64,000 nt of DNA from the NCBI GenBank assembly GCA_964016885.1, contig OZ024744.1:40672001-40736000 (forward strand), given 5' to 3'. The position numbers and the translations under genes were made by a program. The notes below the pieces were generated by a model. The model was not told the DNA's origin and did no database searches. It was given only the letters and a program-made list of their open reading frames with translations. Shown piece by piece: positions 9,091 through 59,907 of this stretch (positions are counted from its first letter, which is position 1; every line of letters begins with the position of its first letter). This stretch comes from Eledone cirrhosa (lineage: Eukaryota).

Positions 9091-9117
9091 ATTATATATA
9101 TATATATACACACACAC

Positions 9118-9198
<81 letters not shown>

Positions 9199-9199
9199 C

Positions 9200-11511: not shown

Positions 11512-11515
<4 letters not shown>
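9200..11515 (+). mobile_element. Penelope-like element: RT + GIY-YIG ORF broken by a stop and frameshifts, then 3' pLTR
   Basis: ORF 9214..9696 has RT motifs FDIDEYY, MGS, YRDD. ORF 9761..10744 has SNHP thumb, CNC..CPL..C linker and IVYKC...YYVGST. ORF 10672..10863 has CRLC..E..LLNNR. Confidence 0.9.
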
Positions 11516-11569
<54 letters not shown>

Positions 11570-11659
11570 GTATATATATATATATATATATATTCGTATA
11601 CAGATATTTTTGCATGCAGAAAAACAAAATATAAACAAACGTGTATATTTCACGAAAGC

Positions 11660-12925
11660 ACAGACGGCGTATCGTCATTGTTACTGCCGATATGCTACCC
11701 AAAAATCCCACTACTTTTGGCACAATACCGTCATCCCTCGTGATGAAGGCCTCCGCGCTCTCCAACAATTTTTAGATTTACGGCCTACCCTTTACCCCAG
11801 CACTACCACTCTTCTCCCTCTGGCTGAGCTTGTTTTCACCCTCAGTGGATTTTCTTTTTCGGGTGAATTTTATCAACAGGTCTCTGGTTAGCGATGGGAA
11901 CCAGTATGGGTCCAAACTGTGCCATCTTGTTTGTTGGCTACATCGAAGCCCAGATCTTCTCCCAGTACGCTGGACCTACTTCAGAGCTATATGGTCGTTA
12001 TATCGACGACTTTATTGGCGCTACCTCCCTATCACGAGAACAGCTCGACTGTTTTCTTTCTTTTGTCCAATCTTTCCATCCTGCCCTCAATTTCACCACC
12101 TCTGTCTCCGATTCTTCTGTCTCTTTTCTAGATATCTCTCTATCTATTAATCACTCTCACCACACCCTCTCTACTTCCATCTTCATTAAACCAACAGACT
12201 CCCACTCTTACCTCGACTTCACCTCCTCCCATCCAACCCACACCAAACACTCCATACCCTATTCCCAATTCCTCTGTCTTCGTCGACTCTGTAGCCAGGA
12301 CGACAATTTCGAAACCCATTCCCTTCGCATGGCTTCCTGCTTCATCCAGCATGAATACCCCTCCCACCTCACCCCGCGTTCCTTTCCCTCTCACCTCTCA
12401 TCTACCACCCCATCACCCTACCAATCCGGTGACATATCCTCCATTCCTTCCGCATCCTCTCTTCTGGCCCCGTCACGTCTCATTTTTTTCCAAACCCACC
12501 CATTACTGGTTTTAAGCACGTCGCAACTTCCGCGACCTCCTGGTTTGCAGTTCCTTTTCGTCCTCTCCCACGACTCCACCCGGCTCTCATCCTTGTTCCC
12601 GTTCCCGCTGCAACACTTGTCCCTTTATTTCCACCCTCACCACTCTTACAGGCCCTAACGGGTCTTTCCCTATCCACCATTCCTTCACCTGCACATCCAC
12701 CCACGTTGTCTATGCCCTCCGGTGTTCCCTTTGCGGGTCTTTATATATCGGAAAAAAGGGACGCCATATGGCGGACCATTTTGCCGAACATTTGAGGGAC
12801 ATACGACTCGGTTTGGATGCTCCTGTCACCCGTCATTTCTGTTCTCCTGGTCGTTCTTCCCTACAAGTTTCAGTCCTGGGTGTCCTTTTACATCATGGAT
12901 CACAGGCCTCACACACCAGGACTGA
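11660..12925 (+). mobile_element. second PLE family fragment (Neptune-like): RT, Cys linker, GIY-YIG
   Basis: QQVSG.AMGT, YIDD, FLD, SSHP..K.SIPYSQ; linker CSRSRCNTCP; VVYALRCSLCGSLYIG...FAEH. Confidence 0.85.
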
Positions 12926-21218: not shown

Positions 21219-21285
<67 letters not shown>

Positions 21286-22134
21286 TATGTATACGTACAT
21301 ACATATATGTATACAGACGTACAGTAGTATGTATATATATATACATACATGCACACACATATATATATATGTACGTATGGATTCACCGAACATTTATTAT
21401 AATGCTCGGTGTGTTTGTAAACAAACATCCCGTATTAAGCCGTAGTGTCTATCAACCATCGTTCCTCATTTGTTCAACACTGACAGGGGAACGCTGTACT
21501 AGTTTCAAGCTTATTAGCTATCGTCAGCAACGTATACCTTCCTGCCAGATGATTGAACGTCTGAAAGTATATACTTTCCTTATGCATATTAACGGCTGAG
21601 CAGCCTAATGTGCATATTGAGTGAGTTAATCGGCCGGGCGCACCGAAAACGATAAACGGAAAAGATGAAACGAAATTTCATTTCTCACTCTTAGTGCGGC
21701 TGTTACTTAAATATAAGTATGTATACGTACATACATATATGTATACAGACGTACAGTAGTATGAATATATATATACATGAACACATATATATATGTACGT
21801 ATGGATTCACCGAACATTTATTATAATGCTCGGTGTGTTTGTAAACAAACATCCCGAATTAAGTCGTACAGTGTCTAGCAACCATCGTTGCTCATTTGTT
21901 CAATACTGACAAAGGAACGCTGTACTAGTTTCAAGCTTATTAGCTATCGTCAGATGATTGAACGTCTGAAAGTATATACTTTCCTTATGCATATTAACGG
22001 CTGAGCAGCCTAATTTTATCGTTTTCGGTGCGCCCGGCCGATTAACTCACTCGATATGCAAATTAGGTTCAACCGTTAATATGCATAAGGAATGTATATA
22101 CTTTCAGACGTTCAATCATCTGGTAGGAAGTTAT

Positions 22135-22177
22135 ACGTTGCTGACGATAGCTAATAAGCTTGAAACTAGTACAGCGT
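22135..22177 (+). ncRNA. minimal type I hammerhead ribozyme, family A reference copy
   Basis: acgttg CTGACGA t-agct-aata-agct-t GAAA ctag TA cagcgt: all core nucleotides, stems I and II, palindromic stem III, GUA site. Confidence 0.88.
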
Positions 22178-22492
22178 TCCTTTGTCAGTGTTGAAGAAAT
22201 GAGCAACGATGGTTGCTAGACACTGTACGGCTTAATTCGGGATGTTTGTTTACAAACACACCGAGCATTATAATAAATGTTCGGTGAATCCATACGTACA
22301 TATATATATATATGTGTGTTCATGTATGTATATATATATATATACATACTACTGTACGTCTGTATACATATATGTATGTACGTATACATACTTATATTTA
22401 AGTAACAATCGTACTAAGAGTGAGAAATGAAATTTCGTTTCATTTTTTCCATTTAACGTTTTCGGTGCGCCCGGCCGATTAACTCACTCGAT

Positions 22493-22545
22493 ATGCAAAT
22501 TAGGCTGCTCAGCCGTTAATATGCATAAGGAAAGTATATACTTTC
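22493..22545 (+). promoter_or_regulatory. putative snRNA/H1-type promoter cassette (octamer, PSE-like, TATA) in family A unit
   Basis: ATGCAAAT 22493-500 and TATATA 22535-40; equivalent spacing in families B and C. Confidence 0.5.
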
Positions 22546-22967
22546 AGACGTTCAATCATCTGGTAGGAAGGTATACGTTGCTGACGATAGCTAATAATCT
22601 TGAAACTAGTACAGCGTTCCTTTGTCAGTGTTGAACAAATGAGCAACGATGGTTGCTAGACACTGTACGGCTTAATTCGGGATGTTTGTTTACAAACACA
22701 CCGAGCATTATAATAAATGTTCGGTGAATCCATACGTACATATATATATATATATGTGTGTTCATGTATGTATATATATATATACATACTACTGTACGTC
22801 TGTATACATATATGTATGTACGTATACATACTTATATTTAAGTAACAGCCGTACTAAGAGTGAGAAATGAAATTTCGTTTCATTTTTTCCGTTTATATAT
22901 ATATATATAAGAAAGTGAGGTTTTTTTTTACAAAATGAAAAATAACCGGTGTCCTACACGTGTGAAA

Positions 22968-37319: not shown

Positions 37320-40300
37320 ATCATCATCATCAGCATCACCGTTTTACGTCCGTTCTTCCATGCTAGCATGGGTTAGACGGGTTGTCCTGTTGTTGGCAGT
37401 GTCTGGTTGGCTGACCTTGTCTTGCTCATTCAGGAACTGATTTTGGCTTGATTTCTACAGCTGGATGCCCTTCCTAACACCAACCTCATTTACAGTGAGT
37501 GCTGGGTGCTTTTTCGTGGCGCCTACATGCCCACTTTACAGTGTGGGCTGGGTGCTTTTTTGCCGTGGCACCTCCACGACCACCTTGCAGTGGGAGGGTG
37601 TGGCGTCATATTGTCTATATGCTTCAGCTTGTACCCATGGGAGGTCGAGTACTCTGTATTACTGCGTGACGCCAGAGGTCACGGTCGTGTGTCATCGCCT
37701 TTGAGAGGTGTAATTGGGTAAGGTCGGCTTTTATCACCTCATCCCAGGTCTTCTTGGGTCTCCTTACTCCGCGGTTTTCATTGACTTCTAGTGTTCTGCA
37801 CCTTTTTATGCAGCTGTCATCCTTCATACGCATCACATGTCCATACCAGCGCAACCGCCTCTCCTGCACACAGCATTTTATTCCTCTTATGCTCAGTCTC
37901 TCTCTCTCAATTCATTTATGCTTTGTCGTTCGCGTATATTACTATTACACATCCATCGGAGCATGCAGGCTTCGTTTCTTTCTAATCTACGTAAGTCTTC
38001 CACCTTCAGCGCCCAGGTCTCACTACCATGTAACATTGCTGTTCGGATACACGCATCATACAGTCTGCCTTTCATTTTGAGGGAGAAGCCTTTTGCAGTT
38101 AGCAGTGGCAGTAGTTCCCTGAACTTCTTCCATCCCGTTCTTACCCTAGTTATTGTACTTTCTGAACACCCACCTCCGCTGCTTATTCGGTTACCTAGGT
38201 AGCTGAAGCTGTCTACTGTTTCTACAGAGCCCTCCCAGAGATTGGTGGTACTTGTTTCCTGTGGCTGTTTGCTGCTTGCTGTCCCAGCACAGCTGCTGCA
38301 TATGAAGCCTACATTCTTAATTAAGCTTCCTGAGATCCCGCTACATCTCTTGTGTACCCATTGTTTGCATTTGGGGCAGAGAATGGTGTTCCTACCTACA
38401 CCTTTCCTACATACTGAGCAAGGCCATTTCCCTGAGGGGATCTGGGTTCTGTTTTCTCGCCTACTTACAATGACCTTAGTCTTTGTCATGTTGACTTTGA
38501 GACCCTTTCTTTCTAGTCCCTGCTTCCAAGTTTGGAATTTCTTCTCTAGTTCTACCATAGATTCAGCTATAAGTGCGCGGTCATCAGCATACAGGAGTTC
38601 CCATGGGCATCCGGTCTTAAACTCCTCCGTTATTGCCTGCAGGACTATGATGAACAGGAGAGGGCTAAGAACAGAGCCCTGGTGGACACAAACCTGTACC
38701 CTAAATTCCTCGCTATACTCATTGCTAATCCTAACTGACTGCTCCCCTATACATGGCTTGTACAGCTTTCATAAGCAATTCATCTACTCCTAGTTTTCTA
38801 AGAGCTCACCAGATTACAGCACGTAGAACTCTGTCAATGGCTTTCTCAATATCGGCGAATGCCAGGTAGAGTGGCTTACTTTTAGCTAGGTACTTTTCCT
38901 GTAACTGCCTGACAAGGAAGAGGGCATCAGTGGTGCCTCTTCCTGGTACAAACCCAAATTGCATCTTATTTATTTTCATCCGGTCCCTAATCAACTGTGC
39001 TATAACTCTTTCTGTTACTTTCATGACCTGGTTCATCAGCTTTATACCTCTATAGTTTCCTCTATCTAGTGCATCACCTTTACGTTTGTAGCAGTTGACA
39101 ATGATGCTACTGCACCAATCTTTTCGTATGACACCTTCTAGTATTACCTGGCTAACAATACGTGTGGTTATAGTGTGACCTACCGACCCAGATGCCTTCA
39201 GCATCTCGGCAGCTATACGCGATGGACCGGTTGCCTTCCCCATCTTCATATCTTTGATTGCCTTACTTACTACGCTGCTAGTACTGACTTGTACTGCTGG
39301 CCCCTCTATAGGGTCTACTTGGGGTAGGGTCTCTTCTTCCCATGCATTCTCCTCATTTAGTAATCTATCATAATGGCTCTTCCATGCATCTTTCTTCTCA
39401 GCACTTGTGAGGGCAAGCTCACCTTTATCATTCCGGATATACTTCTCTCCAATGACATCACAATTCTCTCTGACACACTGCCTCGCAATCTTGAACACCT
39501 CCTGTTTCTGGTCCTCACGTTGCAAAACATGCTTGAATTTTCTATCCTCTGCTTCCCTCCTGGCTAAGTATACTTGTCGCCTAGCTTGCCTCTTGGTCTC
39601 TATGTAATGTACCCTGCTCCCCCCGTTCTTCCATTCTTTCCATGCCTGTCTCTTGGCCTTAACTGCCTCATCTACCTTATTGTTCTACCACCAAGTCACT
39701 TTCCTCCTGATTGTGGTCTTACTCCAGCCACAGACCTCATCCGTCGCATCTAGTAAGTTATTTTTTAGGAACTCCCAGTGCTCTGCTACATTGAATGTCA
39801 CTATCTATTCTTCTTTACTGTCGTAGGCGTTGAGTAAAATATCTTTAAATCTGTTACTGGCTGAGGGGTCTTTCAGCTTCCAGATCTTTCTTCTCCAGGC
39901 TGGCCTCTGTTTCCAAGTTCGTCTAGCTCTGACCGCGAGGTCGCTGACAACTAAGCTATGTTGGGAGGTACATTCCTCACTAGGGTAGACTTTTGTGTTT
40001 ACGACCATCCATCTGTCACGTCCTCTGACGAGGATAAAATCTATCTGACTTGAATGCTCCCCTGATCTATAGGTGATCAGGTGGTTGTCGGGTTTTTTGA
40101 AGTTTGTGTTACATATCGACATGTCATTGGCGTTGCAGAATTCTTGAAGTCTGAATGCTTCCTTATTTCTTGTGCCAACCCCGTGGCCTCCATAGACTCT
40201 ATTGAAGCCGTCACAGTGTTTACCTACGTGTCCGTTAAAATCTCCTGCGATGATTAGGAAGTCATTGTCGTTTGTTAGAGCAGTAGTGTGCATTAGGGAC

Positions 40301-40830
40301 TCGTAAAATCTATCCTTAAGTTCGTCTGGCAACCCCGATTGGGGTGCGTAAGCTGATATTATTGTGGTAATTGTTTTATTCAGGACTAGTCTGAGTTTAA
40401 TGATTCTTGTATTTACCCTGTACACTGAGATTACTTTATCTACCCACTTGTCAGCTAGTGGTATACCTACACCACCCATCCCATCGTTATTTCCCACCCA
40501 GAAAAATGTGGAGCACTGACTTTTTCCTACAAGGACTCTAGCAGACTCTCCTCTCCATCTAGTCTCTTGCACACAGCATACATCAATTTCCTTTCGCTCT
40601 AGCATTTCTACGATTTCTCCTGCTCTTCCTTTCATTGTGCTTACATTGATGGTACCAACTTGGAGTTTTGGGCATTTGTCGACACTCGTAGGGAAGGGCG
40701 ATTTTTGCAGGGGTGTGTGTGTGCTTCCTCTCTCTGGATTGGGGCTTCACATGGGTGCTTGGTAGCTCGCGGATTCATATTCATTTCATCTATTAATTCA
40801 GAGTTGCTCCAATTTATTCTCAGCTCATCC
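37320..40830 (-). mobile_element. near full-length RTE-clade LINE (APE, RT, PHD-like finger, C-terminal domain) with several stops/frameshifts; 5' end approximate
   Basis: GTINV, VQETRW, SAYAPQ, GDFNGH, QIDFI, SQH (APE); NYRGI, QFGF, QGSVLSP, YADD (RT); (GAT)n tail. Confidence 0.93.
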
Positions 40831-43562: not shown

Positions 43563-46088
<2,526 letters not shown>

Positions 46089-46113
46089 ATATAATTATAC
46101 ATTATATATATAA

Positions 46114-46969
46114 TCCGCTGAACCGGTGCGTACTCACACTCTATGCAAATTAGTCTGCCCACTACTAATTTTCATGGAAAAAGCATATAACGATATGTGC
46201 TTTTACAATTCTCCAGAAGGGCCGGTAGATAGGTAAATATTGCTGATGAGTTGTAACAACAACGAAACTAGTTCAATATTCCTTGTCTGGCTTTCTGGAG
46301 AATAGAGGGAAGGTGTTCCCCCGAAAACCAGTATGACTCTAAAAACCGGTTTGTCTTTGTGTTTACATACAGAATAGCTGGGTTGCTCACAGTAAAGCAA
46401 CCACTGAAAGACTTGTTACACCTACATATGTATACGTGTGTGTATTCATATACACACTAGTATTTCAGTATGCATATGTAGATGTACATTTTTAACTTAA
46501 TTGTTTAAGCGTCAGTCATACAAAAGTGAGTTACAAACGAAACGAAATTTAATTTCGTTTCGTTATTTGTTTTTATCGTCTCCGCTGAACCGGTGCGTAC
46601 TCACACTCTATGCAAATTAGTCTGCCCACTACTAATTTTCATGGAAAAAGCATATAACGATATGGGCTTTTACAATTCTCCAGAAGGGCCGGTAGATAGG
46701 TAAATATTGCTGATGAGTTGTAACAACAACGAAACTAGTTCAATATTCCTTGTCTGGCTTTCTGGAGAATAGAGGGAAGGTGTTCCCCCGAAAACCAGTA
46801 TGACTCTAAAAACCGGTTTGTCTGTGTGTTTACATACAGAATAGCTGGGTTGCTCACAGTAAAGCAACCAGTGAAAGACTTGTTACACCTACATATGTAT
46901 ACGTGTGTGTATTCATATACACGCTAGTATTTCAGTATGCATATGTAGATGTACATTTTTAACTTAATT

Positions 46970-46972
<3 letters not shown>
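46114..46972 (+). repeat. 467-bp tandem repeat (about 1.85 units), hammerhead family B
   Basis: Unit starts at 46115 and 46582; CTGATGA at 46243 and 46710; octamer at 46143 and 46610. Confidence 0.9.
46236..46280 (+). ncRNA. minimal type I hammerhead ribozyme, family B (second copy 46703-46747)
   Basis: aatattg CTGATGA gttg-taacaa-caac GAAA ctag TT caatatt: perfect 7-bp stem I and 4-bp stem II. Confidence 0.88.
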
Positions 46973-46996
<24 letters not shown>

Positions 46997-47000
<4 letters not shown>

Positions 47001-50000
47001 AGTATGTATACGAACATACATATATGTATACAGACGTACAGTAGTATGTATATATATATATATATACATACCAACACACATATATATATGTACGTATGGA
47101 TTATACGAACATTTATTATAATGCTCGGTGTGTTTGTAAACAAACATCTCGTATTAAGCCGTACAGTGTCTAGCAAGCATCGTTGCTCATCTGTTCAACA
47201 CTGACAAAGGAACGCTGTACTAGTTTCAAGCTTATTAGCTATCGTCAGCAACGTATACCTTCCTGCCAGATGGTTGAACGTCTGAAAGTATATACTTTCC
47301 TTATGCATATTAACGGTTGAGCAGCCTAATTTGCATATCGAGTGAGTTAATCGGCCGGGGTAACGACATCGATAAACGGAAAAAATGAAACGAAATTTCA
47401 TTTCTCACACTTAGTACGGCTGTTACTTAAATATAAGTATGTATACATACATACATATATGTATACAGACGTACACCAGTATGTATATACATACATGCAC
47501 ACATATATATATATATATGTAAGTATGGATTCACCGAACATTTATTATAATTCTCGGTGAGTTTGTAAACAAACATCCCGTATTAAGCCGTACAGTGTCT
47601 AGCAACAATCGTTGCTCATTTGTTCAACACTGACAAGGGAACGCTTTACTAGTTTCAAGCTTATTAGTTATCGTCAGCAACGTATACCTTCCTGCCAGAT
47701 GATTGAATGTCTGAAAGTATATACTTTCCTCATGCATACTAAGTGCTGAGCAGCCTAATTTTCATATCGAGTGAGTTAATCGGCCAGGGTACCGAAAACG
47801 ATAAACGGAAAAAATGAAACGAAATTTCATTTCTTACTCTTATTACGGCTGTTACATAAATAGAAGTATGTATACGTACATACATATATGTATACAGACG
47901 TACAGTAGTATGTATATATATATATACATGCACACATATATATATATGTACGTATGGATTCACCGAACATTTATTATAATGCTCCGTGTGTTTGTAATCA
48001 AACATCCCGTATTAAGCCGTACAGTGTCTAGCAACCATCGTTGCTCATTTGTTCAACACTGACAAAGGAACGCTGTACTAGTTTCAAGATTATTAGCTAT
48101 CGTCAGCAACGTATAACTTCCTGCCAGATGATTGAACGTCTGAAAGTATATACTTTCCTTATGCATATTAACGGCTGAGCAGTCTAATTTGCATATCGAG
48201 TGAATTAATCGGCCGGGGTACCGAAAACGATAAACGGAAAATATGAAACGAAATTTCATTTCTCACTCTTAGTACGGCTGTTACTTAACTATAAGTATGT
48301 ATACATACATTCATATATGTATACAGACGTACAGTAGTATGTATATATATATACATACATGCACACATATAGATATATGTACGTATGGATTCACCGAACA
48401 TTTATTATAATGCTCGGTGTGTTTATAAACAAACATCCCGAATTAAGCCGTACAGTGTCTAGCAACCATCGTTGCTCATTTGTTCAACACTGACAAAGGA
48501 ACGCTGTACTAGTTTCAAGCTTATCAGCTATCGTCAGCAACGAATACCTTCCTGCCAGATGATTGAACGTCTGAAAGTATATACTTTCCTTATGCATATT
48601 AACGGTTGAGCAGCCTAATTTGCATATCGAGTGAGTTAATCGGCCGGGGTAACGAGATCGATAAACGGAAAAAATGAAACGAAATTTCATTTCTCACACT
48701 TAGTACGGCTGTTACTTAAATATAAGTATGTATACGTACATACATATATGTATACAGACGTACACCAGTATGTATATACATACATGCACACATATATATA
48801 TATATGTAAGTATGGATTCACCGAACGTTTATTATAATTCTCGGTGAGTTTGTAAACAAACATCCCGTATTAAGCCGTACAGTGTCTAGCAACAATCGTT
48901 GCTCATTTGTTCAACACTGACAAGGGAACGCTTTACTAGTTTCAAGCTTATTAGTTATCGTCAGCAACGTATACCTTCCTGCCAGATGATTGAATGTCTG
49001 AAAGTATATACTTTCCTCATGCATACTAAGTGCTGAGCAGCCTAATTTTCATATCGAGTGAGTTAATCGGCCAGGGTACCGAAAACGATAAACGGAAAAA
49101 ATGAAACGAAATTTCATTTCTTACTCTTATTACGGCTGTTACATAAATAGAAGTATGTATACGTACATACATATATGTATACAGACGTACAGTAGTATGT
49201 ATATATATATATACATGCACACATATATATATATGTACGTATGGATTCACCGAACATTTATTATAATGCTCCGTGTGTTTGTAATTAAACATCCCGTATT
49301 AAGCCGTACAGTGTCTAGCAACCATCGTTGCTCATTTGTTCAACACTGACAAAGGAACGCTGTACTAGTTTCAAGATTATTAGCTATCGTCAGCAACGTA
49401 TAACTTCCTGCCAGATGATTGAACGTCTGAAAGTATATACTTTCCTTATGCATATTAACGGCTGAGCAGTCTAATTTGCATATCGAGTGAATTAATCGGC
49501 CGGGGTACCGAAAACGATAAACGGAAAATATGAAACGAAATTTCATTTCTCACTCTTAGTACGGCTGTTACTTAACTATAAGTATGTATACATACATTCA
49601 TATATGTATACAGACGTACAGTAGTATGTATATATATATACATACATGCACACATATAGATATATGTACGTATGGATTCACCGAACATTTATTATAATGC
49701 TCGGTGTGTTTATAAACAAACAACCCGAATTAAGCCGTACAGTGTCTAGCAACCATCGTTGCTCATTTGTTCAACACTGACAAAGGAACGCTGTACTAGT
49801 TTCAAGCTTATCAGCTATCGTCAGCAACGAATACCTTCCTGCCAGATGATTGAACGTCTGAAAGTATATACTTTTCTTATGTATATGCATATTAACGGCT
49901 GAGCAGTCTAATTTGCATATCCAGTGAGTTAATCGGCCAGGGTACCGAAAGCGATAAACAGAAAAAATGAAACGAAATTTAATTTCTCACTCTTAGTACG

Positions 50001-50079
50001 GCTGTTACTTAAATATAAGTATGTATACGTACATACATATATGTATGCAGACGTACAGTAGTATGTATATATATATATA
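46997..50079 (-). repeat. family A hammerhead tandem array, 7+ units of 427-431 bp with a 1287-bp trimer repeat
   Basis: Reverse CTGACGA (tcgtcag) at 47242, 47671, 48100, 48531, 48958, 49387 and 49818. Confidence 0.93.
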
Positions 50080-50578
50080 TGTAGCGACGTGGTTAGTCAG
50101 TCTAGTCACTACTTCTGATCAGATCCGAGAATAGCCCTTAGAAGGACTCTTATCGCATACGGCCTGATCAGATCTGAAGATAGCCTTTAAAAGGACTGTT
50201 GTCGCATATAGCCCTTAAAAGAACTGTTGAGGATGGACAGACGAAAGCACAAGTTGAAAGGACGAAGCAAGGCGAGATGTAAATTCGATCAGCTATTTAT
50301 TTTCACATGAAGCGACGATACGGGGTACAAAGCGTGTGTGAGTGACAAAGCGTAGCAGAGTAAAGGAACAACGATGCGCTAGCTGACTCTGCCAAAAGTC
50401 GACTCCCGAAGTGTTGGGAACCACTCTATTTATACAGGAACAATCGTTTGATGTTTAGTCAATGTATAGGCGTTTATTCTGGTAGGTTCTAAGGGTTCTT
50501 TTGTTTCACGTTGCGGTAGCTAGATAACAGGTAGATGGCGCTGTATATTTCACAGATGTTATTTCCGGTGGCTGTACA
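50080..50578 (-). repeat. 3' LTR (PPT-like agggggct adjacent at about 50581-50588)
   Basis: tgtagcgacg...ggctgtaca direct repeat of 54964-55455 with several substitutions and indels. Confidence 0.92.
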
Positions 50579-51512
50579 TTAGCCCCCTGACAGTTCTTTT
50601 GTACAACAAAAGAGCGAAATATCGTATAGTAATGGGCCAGTGGTGCATTTGTCATGACAATAGCCCCAGGAGTGTCCAGCACGTTGTGAAATTTTGTGAT
50701 CATCGAGTACAGGACAGAGTCGATGTAGAGATGATATGGCAAGATGTGTGTGTCAGGAAGAGAAAAAAGAAATAAACTATAAAATGACTTTGACCAGATT
50801 TATGCAGGCGTGATGAATGAGCCTGTTGCAATTTCGGTTGAGCTGCCTGTGAATTGCGTGACAAAAAGTCTAACTGGGCAGTGAAAATAACCGTAATGTG
50901 TGAACTGAATGGCCGTAAGCATGCTGCCTAAAATTACAGTTTGCTCCACAGCATATGACTTGAGCGAATGCATGTGGTAAAAAAAATAGCGAGGCATTCT
51001 CGAGCTATTGAGTGAATGTGTACGTGAAAAAAGAAGGCCAGTGTTTTGAGAATGCGATTTGTGAAATGCGTGATCAAAGAGAAAACATTTTGTAGTGTAA
51101 GAGTTAGAGGGACACAAATATCTATTGCTCAGTGTATGAACTAAAAGGGTGAAACAAACGTGGTTTTGTAGTGTGCATGAAAAACAGAATATGTACACGC
51201 CTTGTATGTATATAAAAATTATGGCAATTACACAATCAATGTTACAGAACAAGAAAAATATAAATTTTTGCAAAACAAGAGAGTGAAGATAAAAAAATGT
51301 TATACACAATGATATACACAATGTTTGTTCTTAAATAGAGTTTGTAATAAATAATGTTCATTATAAATAATGTTCTTCGTGACATGAGCACATGGTCACT
51401 AAAAATTGCAATTGTTCAAGCAGAAAGTTCATTGTATTTGAAACTGGAAATAGTAAACACAAGAAAAATGGAAATGTTTTGCACGAAGAATGATTAAGAA
51501 ACTCACTTGAGG

Positions 51513-54500
51513 TTAACGGTAATTCACATATTGTGCCAACTTTGCGGGCCAATGGACGCTTCGTCCGCTTCTCGTGACTGGAGATGAAACAGGTGGCTCG
51601 CTGGGACAGCAATCTGTTGGAGTTTCTGGTGTAGAGACTGTAACAGTATCCATGATGGCTTTTTTTAATCTGTCCACGCTGACAGAATTCTGTTTACCAT
51701 CTAGATCGAGAATAAAATATTTCTGATATTTTTTTAGAACACGACAAGGGCCAGAATATGGAGGTCGAAGATGAGCTGAGATGGTGTCGTTTCGAACGAA
51801 AACGTGTGTCCAATCTTTAATGTCTGAAGGTACGTGTGTGGCTGTGTTCTGTTGACGGGTGCTTGCAGGAGCAAGGTGAGACATATATTGTCGAATATGG
51901 TGTACGTATGATCCTGGAACATCCTGAGGAGAGATGGGAGCAACCATCTGACCAGGTAGAACCAGGGTGGTGCCGTACACTAATTCTGCAGATGTGTGTC
52001 CGAATTCCTCCTTAACGGTGGATCGAATAGCCAAAAGGATGAGTGGTAGGTATTCAAACCAGTGGGTCTTGTATGGATATGCTTTTATTGCAGCTTTCAA
52101 TTGACGTTGGAATCGTTCCACGAGACCATTAGCTTGCGGGTGATAAGCTGTCGTGCGGATGTGTTTACATCCTAATAGGCGAGTCAGTTCCCTGAAGAGG
52201 TGGGAGTCAAATTGGCGTCCTCTGTCCATTGTTATCTTCGCTGGGGCGCCATAACGTGATACCCAGTGTAAAACCAAAGTTTTAGCGACTGTTTCCGCTG
52301 AGGTATCATTTATGGGAAAAGCCTCAGGCCAACGGGAAATTCGATCTATGCAAGTGAGCAAGTGTGTGTAGTTCTGTGATGGTGGTAGAGGTCCGACGAT
52401 GTCGATATGCACATGATGAAAACGTGCATAAGGTTGCGCGAATGTGCCGAGTGGAGTTTTGATGTGTCTGTGGACTTTGGCTTTCTGGCAGGCAATGCAG
52501 CTCCTGGACCAGTCGCGCACGTCTTTGTTAATGTTAGTCCACACAAAACGAGCAGAGATGAGTTTCTGTGTAGCCCGGATTCCCGGGTAAGACAAGCAGT
52601 GTAAAGCAGAAAAAACTTGTCGACGTTGCATCTGTGGTACGTACGGTCGTTCATGACCGGTAGAAAGGTCGCACCAAATTTGTCCCGGAGAAGAAGGAAT
52701 GGGAACTTGCTGAAACTTGAGGGATGGCGAATCTCGGAGCTGGATAAACTCTTCGTCAGTCTCTTGGTCAGCTGCGATCTGTTGAAGGTCGATGCTTGAA
52801 TGCACATATATTGCGTTCAGTTGGATTCGGGACAGGGCGTCGGCTGCTACGTTGTCTGATCCCTTGATATGCCGAATATCAGTTGAATATTGGGAGACAA
52901 AATCCAGGTGTCGGAGTTCTCTCGGTGAATGTCGATCAGGTTTGGTACGGAACGCATAAATTAATGGTTTATGGTCCGTGTAGATCACGAAATCTGATCC
53001 TTCGAGCATGTGCCGAAAATGCTTAACCGAAAGATTGGTTGCCAAGAGTTCGCGGCTAAAGGTACTGTATTTCGTTTCTGCCGGCTGCAACCGCTTAGAA
53101 AAGAAGGATAAGGGTTGCCACACGCCGTCGACATGTTGTTGTAAAACGCCTCCAACCCCCGTGTCTGATGCGTCCACAAGCAGCGAAAGAGGAGCGCCAG
53201 ACCTGGGGAAAACGAGCATGGAAGCGTTTGCCAACATTTCCTTCAGGCGGTTAAAAGATGTTAATTCTTCCTCGTTTAGAGTGATCTCTTCATTTTTGCG
53301 AGACCGGTTACGAAGAAGGTCCGTGAGGAGTCTGGCTGCGTCGGAAGAATGAGGGATAAACCGCCTATAAAAATTCACCAGACCGAAGAATTCACGCAGT
53401 TTCCGAAGTGATGTAGGTGCAGGAAAACTGCGGATAGCTTCTACTTTCTCGGGAAGTGGGCGAATGCCGTCTTTATCGATGATGTGCCCGAGAAAGGACA
53501 GTGAGGAACGCCGAGAAGGCACTTGCTGGGGTTGTTGATGATACCGTACTCAGCCAAACGTCGGAAAAGGAGATCTAAGTGCTTCTCGTGTTCATTCTCG
53601 GAAGCACTTGCTACCAGTATGTCGTCAATATACGCGTATACGAAGGGTAGATCGCGTAACACGGTGTCGATAAACCGCTGAAAAGTTTGTGCAGCGTTGC
53701 GCAGACCGAACGGCATTCGCAGGAATTCGAATAAACCGAACGGTCTTGTGATTACGGTCTTCGGAATGTCTGCAGGCTCCATAGGTATCTGGTTATATGC
53801 ACGCACCAAATCTACCTTGGAAAAGATACGTGCGCCTTGCAGAGAGGCAGAAAAATCGTGCAGGTGAGGTACAGGGTAATTATCGGGCACTGTAGAATTG
53901 TTAAGTGCACGATAATCCCCACATGGTCGCCAATCATTCTCGGTTTTTTTTTTGGAACAAGGTGTAGGGGTGCAGACCAGTTGCTGGAGGAAGGGCGAAT
54001 GATTCCGAGGTCCAGCATGTGTTAGAACTCCTGCTTGGCGATTCTCAATCGGTCTGGAGGCAGTCTCCTTGGTCGGGCAGCTCTGGGTGGTCCCATTGTC
54101 TCGATGTGGTGCGTGACACTATGCTTAATGGGACCATCCTTAAATACCGGGCGAGTGATGTCTGGGTATTTCTGGAGAATGCCGTTGTACCGCGAAGGCT
54201 CTGGCTGGCAAATTACAGGGCTCACTGTGGATTGCGTCGTAAATATACCTCTCACAGTGAGGTTTGTGGTGGTGTCGATAAGCCTCCGGTTCTTCATATC
54301 CACCAGAAGGTTGAAGTTGTGGAGAAAATCGGCTCCTAGGATCGGGGTCGGCAGGTCTGCCACGACGAACACCCATTGAAAACGCCACCTCAGGCCTAAA
54401 TTGAGGGTCAGGGATTTTACCCCGAAAGTGGGAATTCACGATCGGTTCACTGCCTGCAGCTGCAGAAAGGACGGGGTTAGGTGTCTTTTGCCCGAGATTA

Positions 54501-54600
54501 GTGAAACAGGAATAACACTAACCTGAGCTCCTGTATACACGAGGTAACGGATGCCTGTCGCCTGGTCGTTAATAAAAAATAGACGACTTTTCTTTTCAGT
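51513..54600 (-). pseudogene. pol: pol: protease (LVYTGA, catalytic D lost), RT (YIDD), RNase H, integrase
   Basis: ORFs 54436, 54022, 53441 and 51513: [56 protein letters not shown]. Confidence 0.93.
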
Positions 54601-54944
54601 ACCAGGGGTGAACGTCGTCCCCAGGCCCTGGGTGGCATTCCGGAAAGAGCACGGGGCTTTGCACTTAGATGCCTGTGCGCCGAAATTTGTGTGATACCAG
54701 CAGAGGTTGCCAGGCACACGATTTTGACTGGGACTACTGGATCTTCGATTGTGAAAAGGCCTGGATCGATTGTTGCTGCGTCACCGGTGTGTTTGAAAGG
54801 TCAGGTTCTCTACTTGATTTGAGAGGGCTTTAATTTGAGAGCCCGCTCTCTGATCATAGCCCGCAGCTCTGAAATCTCGACCTCTGTCGTTTTTGCATGT
54901 CCATGTTGGTATTTTCTTAGATGCTATCTGGTTGCGCGTTCGAC

Positions 54945-54961
54945 TCACGTTCGGGTCACCA
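54945..54961 (-). promoter_or_regulatory. primer-binding site, tRNA-Trp-like
   Basis: TGGTGACCCGAACGTGA just inside the 5' LTR, close to the tRNA-Trp PBS TGGTGACCCCGACGTGA. Confidence 0.75.
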
Positions 54962-54963
54962 AT

Positions 54964-55455
54964 TGTAGCGACGTGGTTAGTCAGTCTAGTCACTACTTCT
55001 GATCAGATCCGAGAATAGCCCTTAGAAGGACTCTTATCGCATACGGTCTGATCAGATCTGAAGATAGCCCTTAAAAGGACTGTTGTCGCATATAGCCCTT
55101 AAAAGAACTGTTGAGGATGGACAGACGAAAGAACAAGTTGAAAGGACGAAGCAAGGCGATCAGCTATTTATTTTCACATGAAGCGACGATACAGGGTACA
55201 AGGCAATGCGTGTGTGAGTGACAAAGCGTGGTAGAGTAAAGGAACAACGATGCGCTAGCTGACTCTGCCAAAAGTCGACCGGCGAAAGTGTTTGGAACCA
55301 CTCTATTTATACAGAAACAATCGTTTGATGTTTAGCCGGTGTGTAAGCGTTTATTCTGGTAGCTTTTAAGGGTTCTTTTGTTTCACGTTGCGGTAGCTAG
55401 CTAACAGGTAGATCGCGCTGTATATTTCACAGATGTTATTTCCGGTGGCTGTACA
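54964..55455 (-). repeat. 5' LTR
   Basis: Direct repeat of 50080-50578, adjacent to the PBS. Confidence 0.92.
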
Positions 55456-56483
55456 TATATATACATACATACGTATGGATTCACCGAAGATTTATTATAA
55501 TGCTCGGTGGGTTTGTAAACAAACATCCCGAATTAAGCCGTACAGTGTCTAGCAACCATCGTTCAACACTGACAAAGGAACGCTGTACTAGTTTCAAGTT
55601 TATTAGCTATCGTCAGCAACGTATACCTTCCTGCCAGATGATTGAACGTCTGAAAGTATATACTTTCCTTATGCATATGCATATTAACGGCTGAGCAGCC
55701 TAATTTGCATATCGAGTGAGTTAATCGGCCGGGGTACCGAAAACGCTAAACGGAAAAAATGAAACGAGATTTCATTTCGCACTCTTAGTACGGCTGTTAC
55801 TTAAATATAAGTATGTATACGTACATACATATATGTATACAGACGTACAGTAGTATGTATATATATATATACATACATGCACACATATATATATGTACGT
55901 ATGGATTCACCGATCATTTATTATAATGCTCGGTGTGTTTGTAAACAAACATCCCGTATTAAGCCGTAGTGTCTAGCAACCATCGTTGCTCGTTTGTTCA
56001 ACACTGACGGTTGTTCAACACTGATCGTTGCTAGGCACTACTGCTTAATACGGTATGTGTGTTTACAAACACACTGAGCATTATAATAAATGTTCGGTGA
56101 ATCCATACGTACATATATATATGTGCATGTATGTATATATATACATACTACTGTACGTCTGTATACATATATGTATGTACGTCTACATACTTATATTTAA
56201 GTAACAGCCGTACTAAGAGTGGGAAATGAAATTTTGTTTTATTTTTTCCGTTTATCGTTTTCGGTGCACCCGGCCGATTAACCCACTCGATATGCAAATT
56301 GGGCTACTCAGCCGTTAATATGCATAAGGAAAGTATATACTTTTAGACGTTCAACAATCTGGCAGGAAGGTATACGTTGCTGTACGTCTGTATACATATA
56401 TGTATGTACGTGTACATAATTTTATTTAAGTAATAGCCCTACTAAGAGTGGGAAATGAAATTTCGTTTCATTTTTTCCGTTTA
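55456..56483. repeat. continuation of family A array; one hammerhead (tcgtcag 55610), fold-back near 56010, + strand unit with deleted core
   Basis: The unit resumes in register after the LTR; at 56380 gttgctg jumps to tacgtctg. Confidence 0.9.
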
Positions 56484-56499
56484 TATATATATATATATA

Positions 56500-57864: not shown

Positions 57865-57880
57865 TATATATATATATATA

Positions 57881-59907
57881 TAAGTAAGGCAATCAAAGAT
57901 ATGAAGACGGGTAAGGCGGCTCGTCCTTCGGAAATAGTTGCTGAGATGTTGAAAGCCTCTGGAACGGTGGGACACACCATAGGCACCCGGATAGTAAACC
58001 AAGTCATACAGAATGGGGTTGTTCTGAAGGACTGGCGTAGCAGCATCATCGTTAACTGTTACAAGGGTAAAGGAGACGCCCTAGATAGGAGTAACTATAG
58101 AGGCATTAAATTAATCGACCAGGTCATGAAGTTCACGGAAAAAGTAATAGCGCAACTAATCAGAGAGAGAATTGATCTAGATGAAATGCAGTTCGGGTTT
58201 GTGTCAGGTAAAAGTACCACAGACGCTCTTTTCATTGTACGACAACTTCAGGAGAAGTACCTAGCTAAATGTAAACCCCTCTACTTAGCTTTTGTAGACC
58301 TGGAGAAAGCCTTCAACAGAGTCCCCCGTTCCATTATCTGGTGGGCTCTTAGAAAACTAGGTGTTGATGAATGGCTTGTGAGAGCTATACAAGCCATGTA
58401 TAAAGAAACAGTCAGCAAGGTTAGAATTAACAACGAATATAGTGAAGAGTTTAGCGTAAAAGTTGGTGTTCATCAGGGCTCTGTTCTTAGCCCCCTACTA
58501 TTTATTATTGCCCTTCAGGCTATAACAGTGGAGTTCAAGACCGGCTGCCCATGGGAACTCCTATACGCAGATGATCCAACGCTCATAGCTGAATCAATGG
58601 CCGAGCTAGAGAAGAAATTCCAAACATGGAAGCACGGCCTAGAATCAAAAGGCGTTAAAATTAACCTGGCTAAGACTAAAGTTCTAGTTTGTAGGAAAGA
58701 AAATAAGGCGCCGGTCCCTTCCGGGAAATGGCCATGCTCAGTGTGTAGGAAAGGCGTAGGTAGAAACTCCATTTTATGTCCCAAATGCAAAGTATGGGTG
58801 CATAAAAGATGTAGCGGGATCACAGGTAAGCTAACTTAGAATATAGATTTTACATGTGGCCGGTGCTCTGGTGCAATAAGTAGCAGCAAGTGCCCACAAA
58901 ATACTAGCTCTTTCAATTGCGCAGAGGGTTCTATAGAAATAGTGGACAGCTTCCATTACCTGAGTGACAAAATCAGCAGTGGGGGAGGGTGCTCTGAAAG
59001 TACAGTAGCTAGAGTCAGAACTGGATGGAAAAAGTTCAGAGAGCTTATACCACTATTAGCCGCTAAAGGCTTCTCCCTAAAAATGAAAGGCAGGCTGTAT
59101 GATGCCTGCATACGAACAGTAATGTTGCATGGCAGTGAGACCTGGGCATTGTGTGCAGAGGATATACGCAGACTAGAGAGGAACGAAGCTTGCATGCTTC
59201 GGTGGATGTGTAATAGTAATATACGTGAACGGCAAAGCATAAACGAACTAAGGGAAAAATTAGAAATAAGAGGGATCAGATGTTGTTTACTCGAGAGAAG
59301 ACTACGTTGGTATGGTCACGTGATGCGCATGAAAGACGACAGCTGTATAAAAAAGTGCAGGGCAATAAAGATTGACGGTAGCCACGGAGTAGGCAGACCC
59401 AGAAAAACCTGGGACGACTTGATAAATTCCGACCTCACACACTTACACCTCTCCAAGACAATGTCACTGGACCGAGATCTTTGGCGGTACTCAGTAATAG
59501 AGAAGACCCGCCTTACCTAAATACAAAGTAAAACCTACTACAGTCAGTAGGCATCTCTAACAAAACACAGCCCCGTCCCACTACCCCCACCCCATCCACA
59601 CGGCCCCTTTCAATGTAAAGTTATGTTGGTGCCACAACATCCAGGCCGAAACAAATGAGATCGTGTAGGTGTCACGACAAAAAAACACACAGTCCACGTT
59701 GTAATGTGGCTGTGTAGGTAACACGGTAAAAACCTCCCAGTTCCACACTGTAAATGTGGTTGGTGTTAGGAAGGGCATCCAGCTGTAGAAAACCCGCCAG
59801 ACAGTCCTATGCGAGCAAGACAACCACTCTTGCCTCAAGTGGGAAAACTCCCGTCCAAACCCATGCAAGCGTGGAACATGGACGTTAAACGATGATGATG
59901 ATGATGA

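What the first reader, a model, noticed from the sequence alone, without database searches (positions are those of the whole stretch)
46114..46972. Family B is a diverged relative of family A with fully compensatory ribozyme stems
Seen: shared promoter-side sequence (actcac..atgcaaattag.ctgc.ca; aatttcgtttc) and identical GAAA-ctag-T. Stem I is aatattg/caatatt versus acgttg/cagcgt, and stem II is gttg/caac versus agct/agct. Changed sequence with preserved pairing is direct evidence of selection on the fold. The array starts about 25 nt after a PLE pLTR and meets a family A array tail to tail across (TA)n.
Basis: partly seen in the sequence, partly recalled or inferred. Interest (0 to 1): 0.75.

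Follow-up and report, generated by a model that had tools for sequence, protein, structure and literature searches.

The report
Hammerhead retrozyme repeat, family B
This is a short array of a 467-base repeat that carries a hammerhead self-cleaving RNA motif and is a diverged relative of the neighbouring repeat family; it is likely a parasitic element copied through RNA into TA-repeat DNA, an ordinary new member of a class already described in animals.

Summary
The sequence facts hold. Window 46114-46972 (+) is 1.84 copies of a 467-nt unit (family B). It is collinear with the 429-nt family A unit over its whole length: 59% identity against 43±2% for shuffles.

Each unit carries a type I hammerhead core, CUGAUGA...GAAA-CUAG-U. 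The predicted cleavage sites lie after 46273 and 46740.

Between A and B, five stem pairs changed on both sides and stayed Watson-Crick. A 61-sequence alignment from the same genome adds further events. "Fully compensatory" overstates this, because family A has U·U at 10.1/11.1 and two of its three unit types here have a broken stem II.

Only family B scores as a hammerhead in Rfam (HH9, 38.6 bits, below the 52-bit cut-off).

Genome-wide, B has at least 1,995 insertion junctions with (TA)n. Insertions have fixed 3' ends (unit positions 303, or 229-235), variable 5' ends and head-to-head inverted arms. A neighbouring Penelope-like element shows the same architecture.

Best reading: a metazoan non-LTR retrozyme, likely mobilised by Penelope-like machinery. 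This is a new member of a known kind. Cleavage, circular RNA and the proposed promoter are untested, and no RNA run was listed.

The parts
46114..46972 (+). Family B array: unit positions 308-467, 1-467, 1-234 (467-nt unit numbered from the predicted cleavage site)
   Evidence: copies 99% identical
46231..46284 (+). Hammerhead motif 1. Stem I 5' strand 46236-46242; core CTGATGA 46243-46249; stem II 46250-46263; GAAA 46264-46267; palindrome ACTAGT 46267-46272; predicted cleavage between 46273 and 46274; stem I 3' strand 46274-46280
   Evidence: HH9 38.6 bits, E 7e-8; own model, 74.4 bits; fold z -2.55
46698..46751 (+). Hammerhead motif 2, identical to motif 1; predicted cleavage between 46740 and 46741
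46535..46564 (+). Perfect 13-bp hairpin AAACGAAACGAAAT-TTA-ATTTCGTTTCGTT, just upstream of the element's long 3' end (unit position 303 = window 46576).
   Evidence: lies in the most conserved part of 46 B-like units
46132..46161 (+). Conserved block ACTCAC..TATGCAAATTAG.CTGC.CA (octamer-like). A second copy lies at 46599-46628. A promoter role is only an inference
46973..46996 (.). (TA)12 between the short 3' end of B (unit 234) and the short 3' end of A (unit 219)
46993..50078 (-). Family A array (429-nt unit, 7.2 copies, three-unit higher-order repeat). It continues at 55455-56008 beyond an inserted LTR element and has a short inverted arm at 56023-56484 ending at A unit 275
46093..46113 (.). 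21-nt TA-rich spacer between element X and the 5' end of the B array
45500..46092 (+). It is the inverted copy of 43758-44354 (95.5% identical)
   Evidence: protein-feature leads to RT/HTH_animal and GIY-YIG clusters in longer copies
43685..44354 (-). Left arm of element X with the ~72-nt tail extension, followed by (TA)61 at 43563-43684

Best explanation
Family B is a 467-nt tandem-repeat element that carries a type I hammerhead motif and is homologous over its whole length to family A. It is likely a non-autonomous 'non-LTR retrozyme': its RNA is predicted to self-cleave after U46273/U46740, probably as a dimer, and would be copied back into (TA)n microsatellites by the machinery of a Penelope-like element.

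Shown by the sequence and the calls:
- A and B are homologous.
- The hammerhead core is intact and stems I and II are kept by compensatory changes.
- Helix III is only A-U plus the palindromic tetraloop CUAG.
- There are thousands of dispersed, near-identical insertions.
- The 3' ends are fixed at unit positions 303 or 229-235 and fuse to (TA)n. The 5' ends vary.
- Arms are inverted head to head, with the ~70-nt tail on one arm only.
- Family A and the neighbouring Penelope-like element X have the same architecture.

Inferred, not shown:
- transcription, possibly from the conserved ATGCAAAT block;
- cleavage through a two-hammerhead dimer formed by ACUAGU pairing;
- ligation into a 467-nt circle;
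- target-primed reverse transcription from TA microhomology, running round the circle or along a multimer to give tandem units;
- the 3' hairpin acting as the signal the reverse transcriptase recognises.
For: Homology: 59.0% identity against 43.4±2.3% for 40 shuffles, with collinear conserved blocks.

Hammerhead:
- The motif occurs 14 times in the window and 0 times in 100 shuffles.
- Rfam HH9 scores 38.6 bits (E 7e-8) for both B copies. They are the only hammerhead hits in the window at E<=0.01.
- Covariation on 61 distinct copies: 81.8% paired against 27-41% slid; score 0.324 against 0.130 shuffled, reached by 0 of 500 shuffles.
- Subfamilies B2/B3 flip 10.2-11.2 from U-A to A-U.
- The B hammerhead fold has z -2.55.
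- The circular monomer has MFE -142.9 against -94.8±4.9 kcal/mol for 30 mononucleotide shuffles.

Mobility:
- The B unit gives 234 matches from 659 candidates on many contigs at 96-100% identity.
- The junction of unit position 303 with (TA)n has 1,995 exact hits and 0 in the control.
- (TA)n follows 9 of 9 long ends and 13 of 14 short ends.
- In 30 loci sampled by that junction, 20 have an inverted partner arm. All 13 clearly resolved partners end at 229-235 and none at 303.
- Nine loci of the first sample show the same 303 plus 229-234 pairing.
- Family A shows ends at 219 and 275 in two window loci.
- Element X shows a short end and a ~72-nt longer end, both fused to (TA)n.

Literature:
- Passages of PMC8557442 describe Penelope-like insertions with partial tandems, an inverted 5'-truncated copy, a tail at one end, and a (TA)n bias.
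- Passages of PMC7229834 describe non-LTR retrozymes of 150-450 bp and circular RNAs. They also describe an axolotl hammerhead with a one-pair helix III capped by a palindromic tetraloop that needs dimers, and another with U·U at the base of helix II.
- The abstract and Results of preprint 10.64898/2026.07.22.740005 report that animal retrozymes are related to Penelope-like pLTRs.
Against: - No RNA evidence at all. No listed run is on record as RNA, and the contigs laid were of unknown kind.
- The Rfam score is below the family cut-off of 52 bits, and the gathering-threshold scan gave nothing.
- Family A gets no hammerhead hit at E<=10, and its fold is no better than shuffles (z -0.51). It has U·U at 10.1/11.1, and two of its three unit types here break stem II. 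B2's fold has z +0.36.
- Pair 10.1-11.1 is unpaired in 52 of 61 sequences.
- Within 46 B-like units the hammerhead is only averagely conserved (0.93-0.97 per 20-nt bin). The 3' region (0.96-1.00) and positions 341-400 (0.99) are the most conserved.
- I looked for cDNA 5' ends at the cleavage site and found none. The apparent starts at position 1 were alignment artefacts.
- Element X has no detectable hammerhead and no sequence similarity to B, so it is a candidate partner by architecture only. Its ORFs have no Pfam hit.
- Tandem units could equally come from multimeric linear transcripts. Some arrays alternate two unit variants.
Confidence: 0.7

Rival explanations
1. A and B are ordinary satellite or minisatellite DNA spread by unequal crossing-over and segmental duplication. 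On this view the hammerhead is a decaying relic with no present role.
For: - The A array has a three-unit higher-order repeat, and two of its three unit types break stem II.
- Some B arrays alternate two unit variants.
- The hammerhead is not the most conserved part of B.
- There is no RNA evidence.
Against: - There are 1,995 junctions with the same 3' end fused to (TA)n.
- Arrays are short and dispersed on many contigs at 96-100% identity.
- The 5' ends vary, and inverted arms show a fixed asymmetry of ends.
- Stem changes between lineages are compensatory.
Confidence: 0.08
2. The units are mobilised by a LINE-type (APE endonuclease) reverse transcriptase. On this view the inverted arms arise by twin priming, and Penelope-like machinery is not involved.
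For: - LINE-like ORFs (APE, RT, PHD) lie in the window at 37893-40746 and 57865-58839.
- Fixed 3' ends with 5' truncation fit any target-primed reverse transcription.
- That LINE twin priming gives inversions is recalled knowledge and comes from no call.
Against: - The 3' end has no poly(A) or simple-repeat tail of its own.
- Partial tandems, an inverted arm and a tail at one end are what PMC8557442 describes for Penelope-like elements.
- Element X next door, with RT-like and GIY-YIG-like leads, shows the same features.
- Hammerheads of this minimal helix III kind are linked to Penelope-like elements and retrozymes in the literature.
Confidence: 0.12
3. The B and A units are not separate non-autonomous elements. 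They are the pseudo-LTR part of an autonomous Penelope-like element, seen here as ORF-less remnants.
For: - Minimal type I hammerheads map to pLTRs of Penelope-like elements (passages).
- Retrozyme families are sister to pLTRs in Xenopus.
Against: - In about 45 independent B loci examined, arrays consist of 467-nt units only, up to 10 or more in a row, with no ORF between them.
- The longest stop-free stretch in a B trimer is 70 codons.
- The one Penelope-like element identified (X) shares no sequence with B.
Confidence: 0.1

Closest known systems
Salamander satellite-2 / axolotl non-LTR retrozymes (HHR_Amex1 and HHR_Amex2; PMC7229834, passages read)
   Same: - Tandem units of a few hundred bases, each with a type I hammerhead.
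- Helix III of one base pair capped by a palindromic tetraloop (Amex1), as in A and B.
- U·U at the base of helix II (Amex2), as in A.
- Those ribozymes cleave well only as dimers.
   Different: - The unit sequence is different and longer (467 and 429 nt against 330-350).
- No activity or RNA data exist here.
- The (TA)n target, the fixed pair of 3' ends and the inverted-arm architecture seen here did not appear in the passages of these papers that I read.
Invertebrate non-LTR retrozymes (coral, mussel; PMC7229834, PMC7761336 passages)
   Same: - Low GC (37% here), no ORF, and tandem repeats.
- A predicted highly self-paired circular RNA.
- Co-occurrence with Penelope-like elements.
   Different: Those hammerheads have a more stable helix III and cleave as monomers. 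Here helix III is minimal.
Minimal hammerheads in pseudo-LTRs of Penelope-like elements (Cervera and de la Pena 2014; Lunse et al. 2017; seen only as citations and summary passages in PMC7761336)
   Same: Type I topology, minimal helix III, action as dimers, and tandem arrangement.
   Different: B units do not flank an RT-EN ORF. B keeps a bulge in stem I and a loop 2 like those of canonical type I motifs. Tertiary contacts were not tested.
Rfam Hammerhead_HH9 (RF02275)
   Same: Best-scoring Rfam family for both B copies. The full-length alignment covers stems I and II and the core.
   Different: The score is 38.6 bits, below the 52-bit cut-off. The model's helix III loop is deleted in B.
Penelope-like element insertion architecture (Craig et al. 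2021, PMC8557442, passages)
   Same: Partial tandems, an adjacent inverted 5'-truncated copy, an extension at one end only, and a (TA)n insertion bias.
   Different: The extension is 56-74 nt here against the 30-40 bp reported. The passages read name a (TA)n preference for Naiads and suggest an endonuclease-linker-mediated microsatellite bias in Neptune, not for retrozymes.

Membership tests
Hammerhead ribozyme, type I | Conserved core C3-U4-G5-A6-N7-G8-A9 ... G12-A13-A14 ... U16.1-H17 | tested here: met
   B has CUGAUGA / GAAA / U-U; A has CUGACGA / GAAA / U-A. The assignment of nucleotide numbers is recalled from the standard hammerhead numbering.
Hammerhead ribozyme, type I | Helices I and II supported by pairing and covariation; helix I open | tested here: met
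   Of the cells, 81.8% are paired against 27-41% when slid. Eight of 12 pairs show a change on both sides. B has 7 + 5 pairs and A has 6 + 4.
Hammerhead ribozyme, type I | Base pair 10.1-11.1 at the foot of helix II | tested here: inconclusive
   B/B2 have G-C. A has U·U and D has C·A. The pair is unpaired in 52 of 61 sequences. A U·U variant with reduced activity is reported for axolotl.
Hammerhead ribozyme, type I | Stable helix III | tested here: not met
   Helix III is only A15.1-U16.1 with the tetraloop CUAG. The six-base palindrome ACUAGU could pair between two copies. This fits the known dimer-dependent subclass, not the monomeric one.
Hammerhead ribozyme, type I | Rfam gathering score | tested here: not met
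   HH9 scores 38.6 bits against a cut-off of 52. There were 0 hits at gathering thresholds.
Hammerhead ribozyme, type I | Site-specific self-cleavage | not testable with these tools
   No RNA run was listed. The genomic 5' ends gave no signal at the site.
Metazoan non-LTR retrozyme | Head-to-tail repeats of roughly 150-450 bp (up to 972 bp in the 2026 preprint), each with a type I hammerhead; no LTR, PBS or PPT; no ORF; low GC | tested here: met
   The unit is 467 nt, with a hammerhead in every full unit. GC is 37% and the longest open stretch is 70 codons.
Metazoan non-LTR retrozyme | Dispersed multi-locus copies indicating transposition | tested here: met
Metazoan non-LTR retrozyme | Expression as unit-length linear and circular RNA | not testable with these tools
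   No RNA holder was listed. The only related result is a predicted stable circular fold.
   The architecture is met. Feature-based leads point to HTH_animal/RVT_1 and GIY-YIG clusters at 0.96. Against this, there is no Pfam hit and no hammerhead.

The most novel reading that the evidence does not exclude
The insertion footprints of families A and B have four features: (TA)n targets, two alternative fixed 3' ends, head-to-head arms, and a ~56-74-nt tail on one arm only. They copy the footprint of a co-resident, young Penelope-like element (X) feature for feature. If real, this is direct genomic evidence of which machinery integrates animal retrozymes, and it identifies the conserved 3' hairpin-plus-tail as the cis signal. 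A 2020 review stated that these repeats show no conserved motif from which the partner could be deduced (PMC7761336).
Probability: 0.45. Interest if true: 0.6.

Novelty: new member of a known kind. Interest (0 to 1): 0.4.

Why it matters
Animal non-LTR retrozymes and their link to Penelope-like elements are already in print, so the existence of families A and B is not surprising.

Two things are useful here.

First, this is a clean natural covariation series for a dimer-type hammerhead inside one genome. It runs from A/D with a mismatched 10.1-11.1, through A' with G·U, to B/B2/B3 with a canonical G-C and a flipped 10.2-11.2. This makes the fold, and the tolerance of the 10.1-11.1 position, easy to test.

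Second, the insertions are very regular: about 2,000 junctions with (TA)n, two fixed 3' ends, and a tail on one arm only. A Penelope-like element next door has the same architecture. This gives a concrete, testable handle on how retrozymes are integrated, a point that the passages I read of PMC7229834 and PMC7761336 leave open.

Tried and rejected
- RNA evidence: the look-up of sequencing runs listed no RNA holder. Read laying on X1, X4, X5 and X6 gave only short contigs of unknown kind. It showed no molecule ends and no usable cross-species stem data. This says nothing on expression or cleavage.
- cDNA run-off at the cleavage site: several arms seemed to start at unit position 1. Reading the junctions showed they start 3-11 nt upstream or continue into diverged sequence, so the idea was dropped.
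- Rfam at gathering thresholds gave 0 hits in the window. The many miRNA 'hits' at E-value thresholds are TA/CA low-complexity artefacts.
- My own model R1, built from the A/B/D hammerheads, found only the 14 A/B copies in the window plus one weak partial hit at 44323-44347 (15.8 bits, E 0.03).
- A regex scan found hammerhead-like strings with palindromic helix III at 8995, 17666/18024 and 35403. Neither Rfam nor R1 supports them.
- Pfam on ORFs of element X and on ORFs at 9085-12658 found nothing.
- No similarity was found between B and X.
- The search of earlier findings had nothing for this genome.
- The autonomous partner carrying a B-like hammerhead was not found, because searches with B sequence are swamped by B copies.
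- I did not confirm in any paper the recalled report that newt satellite 2 uses an snRNA-type promoter with an octamer. Search one search listed no paper that could confirm it, and the one passage check I made (PMC7229834) did not mention it.
Full report
**What is there.** Window 46114-46972 (+) holds 1.84 copies of a 467-nt unit. The two copies are 99% identical over 392-394 nt. Numbered from the predicted cleavage site, the array is 308-467, 1-467, 1-234.

Each full unit reads AAUAUUG-CUGAUGA-GUUGU-AACA-ACAAC-GAAA-CUAG-U-U|CAAUAUU. GUU ends at 46273 and at 46740. The motif CTGAYGA-N(8-30)-GAAACTAGT occurs 14 times in the window (2 B, 12 A) and in none of 100 shuffles.

Rfam gives nothing at gathering thresholds. 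At E-value thresholds both B copies align end to end with Hammerhead_HH9, at 38.6 bits against a cut-off of 52 (E 7e-8 in the local scan, 3e-6 in the whole window). They are the only hammerhead hits in the window. The family A copy inside the local scan gets no hammerhead hit at E<=10.

**A and B are homologous.** Family A has a 429-nt unit and lies on the minus strand at 46993-50078. It has 7.2 copies arranged as a three-unit higher-order repeat. It is collinear with B over the whole unit. Identity is 59.0% (249 matches), against 43.4±2.3% (maximum 47.8%) for 40 mononucleotide shuffles and 45% for the reversed sequence.

Aligning genomic copies of five lineages (B, B2, A, an A/D hybrid, D) gives 195 invariant columns. 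The conserved blocks are:
- the hammerhead core;
- TATGCAAATTAG.CTGC.CA, preceded by ACTCAC (window 46132-46161 and 46599-46628);
- GAAAT..AATTTCGTTTC.TT.TTT...TTTATCG;
- TTTAAG..CAG.

**The stems.** In the gap-free register (alignment A2), A and B compare as follows.

Stem I:

| Pair | A | B |
|---|---|---|
| 2.1-1.1 | G-C | G-C |
| 2.2-1.2 | U-A | U-A |
| 2.3-1.3 | U·G | U-A |
| 2.4-1.4 | G-C | A-U |
| 2.5-1.5 | C-G | U-A |
| 2.6-1.6 | A-U | A-U |
| seventh pair | U·U | A-U |

Stem II:

| Pair | A | B |
|---|---|---|
| 10.1-11.1 | U·U | G-C |
| 10.2-11.2 | A-U | U-A |
| 10.3-11.3 | G-C | U-A |
| 10.4-11.4 | C-G | G-C |
| 10.5-11.5 | U-A | U-A |

Five pairs changed on both sides and stayed Watson-Crick, and no change breaks a pair in B. 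Family A itself has two non-pairs, so 'fully compensatory' overstates the case.

**A wider covariation test.** I collected other relatives from the window's own genome with patterns that fix the core and GAAACTAGT and with the B unit. This gave 69 distinct 54-nt hammerhead segments. I dropped 8 of them: two unrelated ones (L047, L072) and six cut by an array end. The remaining 61 were aligned.

On the 12 pairs, 81.8% of cells are standard pairs, against 27-41% when the 3' partners are slid by 1-3 columns. The covariation score is 0.324 against 0.130±0.011 for shuffles (0 of 500 reach it) and at most 0.121 when slid. Eight of 12 pairs show a change on both sides.

Events beyond the A/B split are:
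- Pair 2.3-1.3 occurs as G·U (26 sequences), U·G (18), U-A (10) and A-U (5).
- Pair 10.2-11.2 occurs as A-U (39), G·U (11) and U-A (4).
- Within the B lineage, the window type has U-A at 10.2-11.2, while subfamilies B2 and B3 have A-U. These two are found at many loci.
- The long distal part of helix I also differs between B and B2 by an A-U to G-C change (read by eye).

Three limits apply. The sequences are related, so the independent events are few. The sample was chosen with patterns, so the invariance of the core says nothing. Pair 10.1-11.1 is unpaired in 52 of 61 sequences (U·U in A, C·A in the abundant family D, which has 1,701 pattern hits against 18 in the control).

**Fold.** The B hammerhead segment folds into helices I and II, with z -2.55 against dinucleotide shuffles. 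D gives z -2.43, A gives -0.51 and B2 gives +0.36.

Helix III is only A15.1-U16.1 closed by the palindromic tetraloop CUAG. The Rfam alignment deletes the whole helix III loop. A monomer therefore cannot form a normal helix III, but two copies can pair ACUAGU with ACUAGU. Cofolding favours a dimer by 3.4 kcal/mol, which is not decisive.

The 467-nt unit folded as a circle has MFE -142.9 kcal/mol, against -94.8±4.9 for 30 mononucleotide shuffles. Helix I continues for about 30 pairs. Part of this stability comes from low-complexity TA/CA stretches.

**How the family sits in the genome.** The window's genome is about 3.0 Gb. The B unit gives 234 matches (659 candidates, 40 scored) on many contigs at 96-100% identity.

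In about 17 independent loci, arrays have the form [x-467][1-467]n[1-303] or [...][1-229/234]. The 3' ends therefore fall at only two places, and the 5' ends vary.

The ends fuse to TA repeats. All 9 long ends read ...TTATTTGTTTTTAT|ATATAT, and 13 of 14 short ends read ...AACTTAATT|ATAT or ...TTGTTTA|TATA. The exception is L005. The long-end junction string occurs 1,995 times in the genome, and the backwards control 0 times.

In the first 30 such loci (81-100% identical to the window unit):
- 20 have a head-to-head inverted partner arm. All 13 clearly resolved partners end at 229-235 and none at 303. A 14th, L129, ends 2 nt from the edge of the fetched stretch.
- 3 loci have arrays that run off the fetched stretch.
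- 7 loci show no partner by BLAST. In one of these, L125, I saw a diverged inverted piece by eye.

Nine loci of the first sample show the same pairing of one 303 end with one 229-234 end.

Family A behaves alike. The window locus 21276-22896 is an inverted pair ending at A positions 219 and 275, both next to TA repeats. The large A array ends at 219 (46993), and its short inverted arm ends at 275 (56484). A-219 aligns with B-229/234 and A-275 with B-303.

In the window, then, the short end of B and the short end of A face each other across (TA)12.

**The neighbour on the left.** The stretch 45500-46092 (+) is 95.5% identical to the inverted 43758-44354. This element (X) is abundant and young, with 2,387 candidates and scored copies 95-97% identical.

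Its arms point outward and are flanked by TA repeats. It also has two 3' end forms. The short form reads ...TTATTATACATTA|TATATA. The long form carries about 72 extra bases before the TA repeat. In the window the right arm has the short form and the left arm the long form.

Longer copies carry collinear open stretches. These have no Pfam hit even at E<=5. By protein-language-model features, one stretch resembles clusters with HTH_animal/RVT_1/DUF8422 (0.96), and the next downstream resembles GIY-YIG clusters (0.96). These are leads, not proofs. No hammerhead is detectable in X.

So 'PLE pLTR' is plausible. The B array starts 21 nt after its short end.

**Comparison with print.**
- Passages of Craig et al. 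2021 (PMC8557442) describe Penelope-like insertions. These are partial tandems with an adjacent inverted 5'-truncated copy and a 30-40-bp tail often at one end only. The passages also name a (TA)n preference in Naiads and suggest an endonuclease-linker-mediated microsatellite bias in Neptune.
- Passages of Cervera and de la Pena 2020 (PMC7229834) describe animal non-LTR retrozymes: tandem 150-450-bp units with type I hammerheads, expressed as circular RNAs. [quoted passage not shown] Another has U·U at the base of helix II and is weakly active. These match the traits of B and A.
- The 2020 review (PMC7761336) says the repeats show no conserved motif from which to deduce the autonomous partner.
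- The 2026 preprint 10.64898/2026.07.22.740005 (abstract, Results and term search) links retrozymes to Penelope-like pLTRs by phylogeny. In the text I searched, it does not mention TA targets or inverted arms.

**Most likely mechanism.**
- Shown: the anatomy described above.
- Inferred: each unit is transcribed. Two hammerheads pair through ACUAGU and cut after U17. The 467-nt RNA is ligated into a circle by a host ligase. A Penelope-like RT-EN nicks a (TA)n tract, and the TA 3' end primes on an A/U-rich site of the RNA, just after the 13-bp hairpin (303) or at 229-235. Synthesis runs round the circle, or along a multimer, to give tandem units and stops at a variable point. A second priming event on the other strand gives the inverted arm with the other end form.

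Within 46 distinct B-like units (85-100% identical), the best conserved parts are 221-300 (0.96-1.00 per 20-nt bin; the terminal 20 nt are partly biased by my search pattern) and 341-400 (0.99). The hammerhead bins score 0.93-0.97. This fits a cis role for the 3' region and for the ATGCAAAT region. A promoter role for the octamer-like block is possible but untested.

**What speaks against this reading or stays open.**
- There is no RNA evidence, and the Rfam score is sub-threshold.
- A's hammerhead is weak and decayed.
- There is no cDNA-end signal at the cleavage site.
- Arrays with alternating unit variants could come from dimeric circles, multimeric linear templates or later duplication.
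- X shares only architecture with B, not sequence.

**Verdict.** The object is a new member of a known kind, the animal non-LTR retrozymes with a dimer-type hammerhead. The most useful extra result is the very regular, Penelope-like insertion footprint at (TA)n.

Noticed in passing
window 50079-55454: An LTR retrotransposon sits inside the family A array, between A unit positions 142 and 151. On the minus strand it carries RT at 53441-54118 and RNase H, zinc-binding and integrase core domains at 51513-53549. A 49-bp tandem repeat lies near both of its ends (50115-50208 and 54998-55092).
   Followed up: partly
window 43685-46092; L102-L105: Element X is an abundant, young inverted-arm repeat (2,387 candidates). 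It has two alternative 3' ends (short, or about 72 nt longer), both fused to (TA)n. Feature-level leads point to RT/HTH_animal and GIY-YIG, but there is no Pfam hit and no detectable hammerhead.
   Followed up: partly
G000 genome-wide; L031-L059: Family D (CTGATGA-C-AGCT-AATA-AGCT-A-GAAACTAGT) has 1,701 pattern hits against 18 in the control. Its 10.1/11.1 position is C·A, and its stem I is ACGGUG/CAUCGU. It is about 86-88% identical to A. Rare copies have C-G at 10.1/11.1 (L031).
   Followed up: partly
G000:C3:12272007-12288625: A long array with a period of roughly 500-600 bases carries an A-like hammerhead with G·U at 10.2-11.2 and loop AACA (CTGATGATGGCTAACAAGCTT). At least 28 units lie in a row on one strand.
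   Followed up: no
G000:C5:62051138-62054445; L005: Some B arrays alternate two unit variants (467 and 480 nt, or two point variants). The window's A array has a three-unit period. The possible sources are dimeric or trimeric templates, or later duplication.
   Followed up: no
L007, L008, L118 (5' junctions): Three arms begin 8-11 nt upstream of the cleavage site, inside GAAACTAGT at the 3' foot of stem II. This may be a stalling or template-switch point. Three cases are too few to judge.
   Followed up: partly
window 8995; 17666 and 18024; 35403: A simple regex scan found hammerhead-like strings with palindromic helix III loops (ATGCGCAT, ATATATAT, CCCATGGG). The pair at 17666(-)/18024(+) is identical and inverted. 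Neither Rfam nor my model R1 supports any of them.
   Followed up: partly
window 37893-40746 (-) and 57865-58839 (+): LINE-like ORF pieces lie here. 39805-40746 has an APE endonuclease domain, 38806-39684 an RT domain, and 37893-38768 RT plus a PHD finger. 57865-58839 has RT plus a PHD finger.
   Followed up: no
window, throughout: (TA)n tracts of 30-150 bp are very frequent, at more than 15 in 64 kb. They repeatedly flank repeat arms (A at 21223-21370; X at 43563-43684). This suggests they are a general landing site in this genome.
   Followed up: partly
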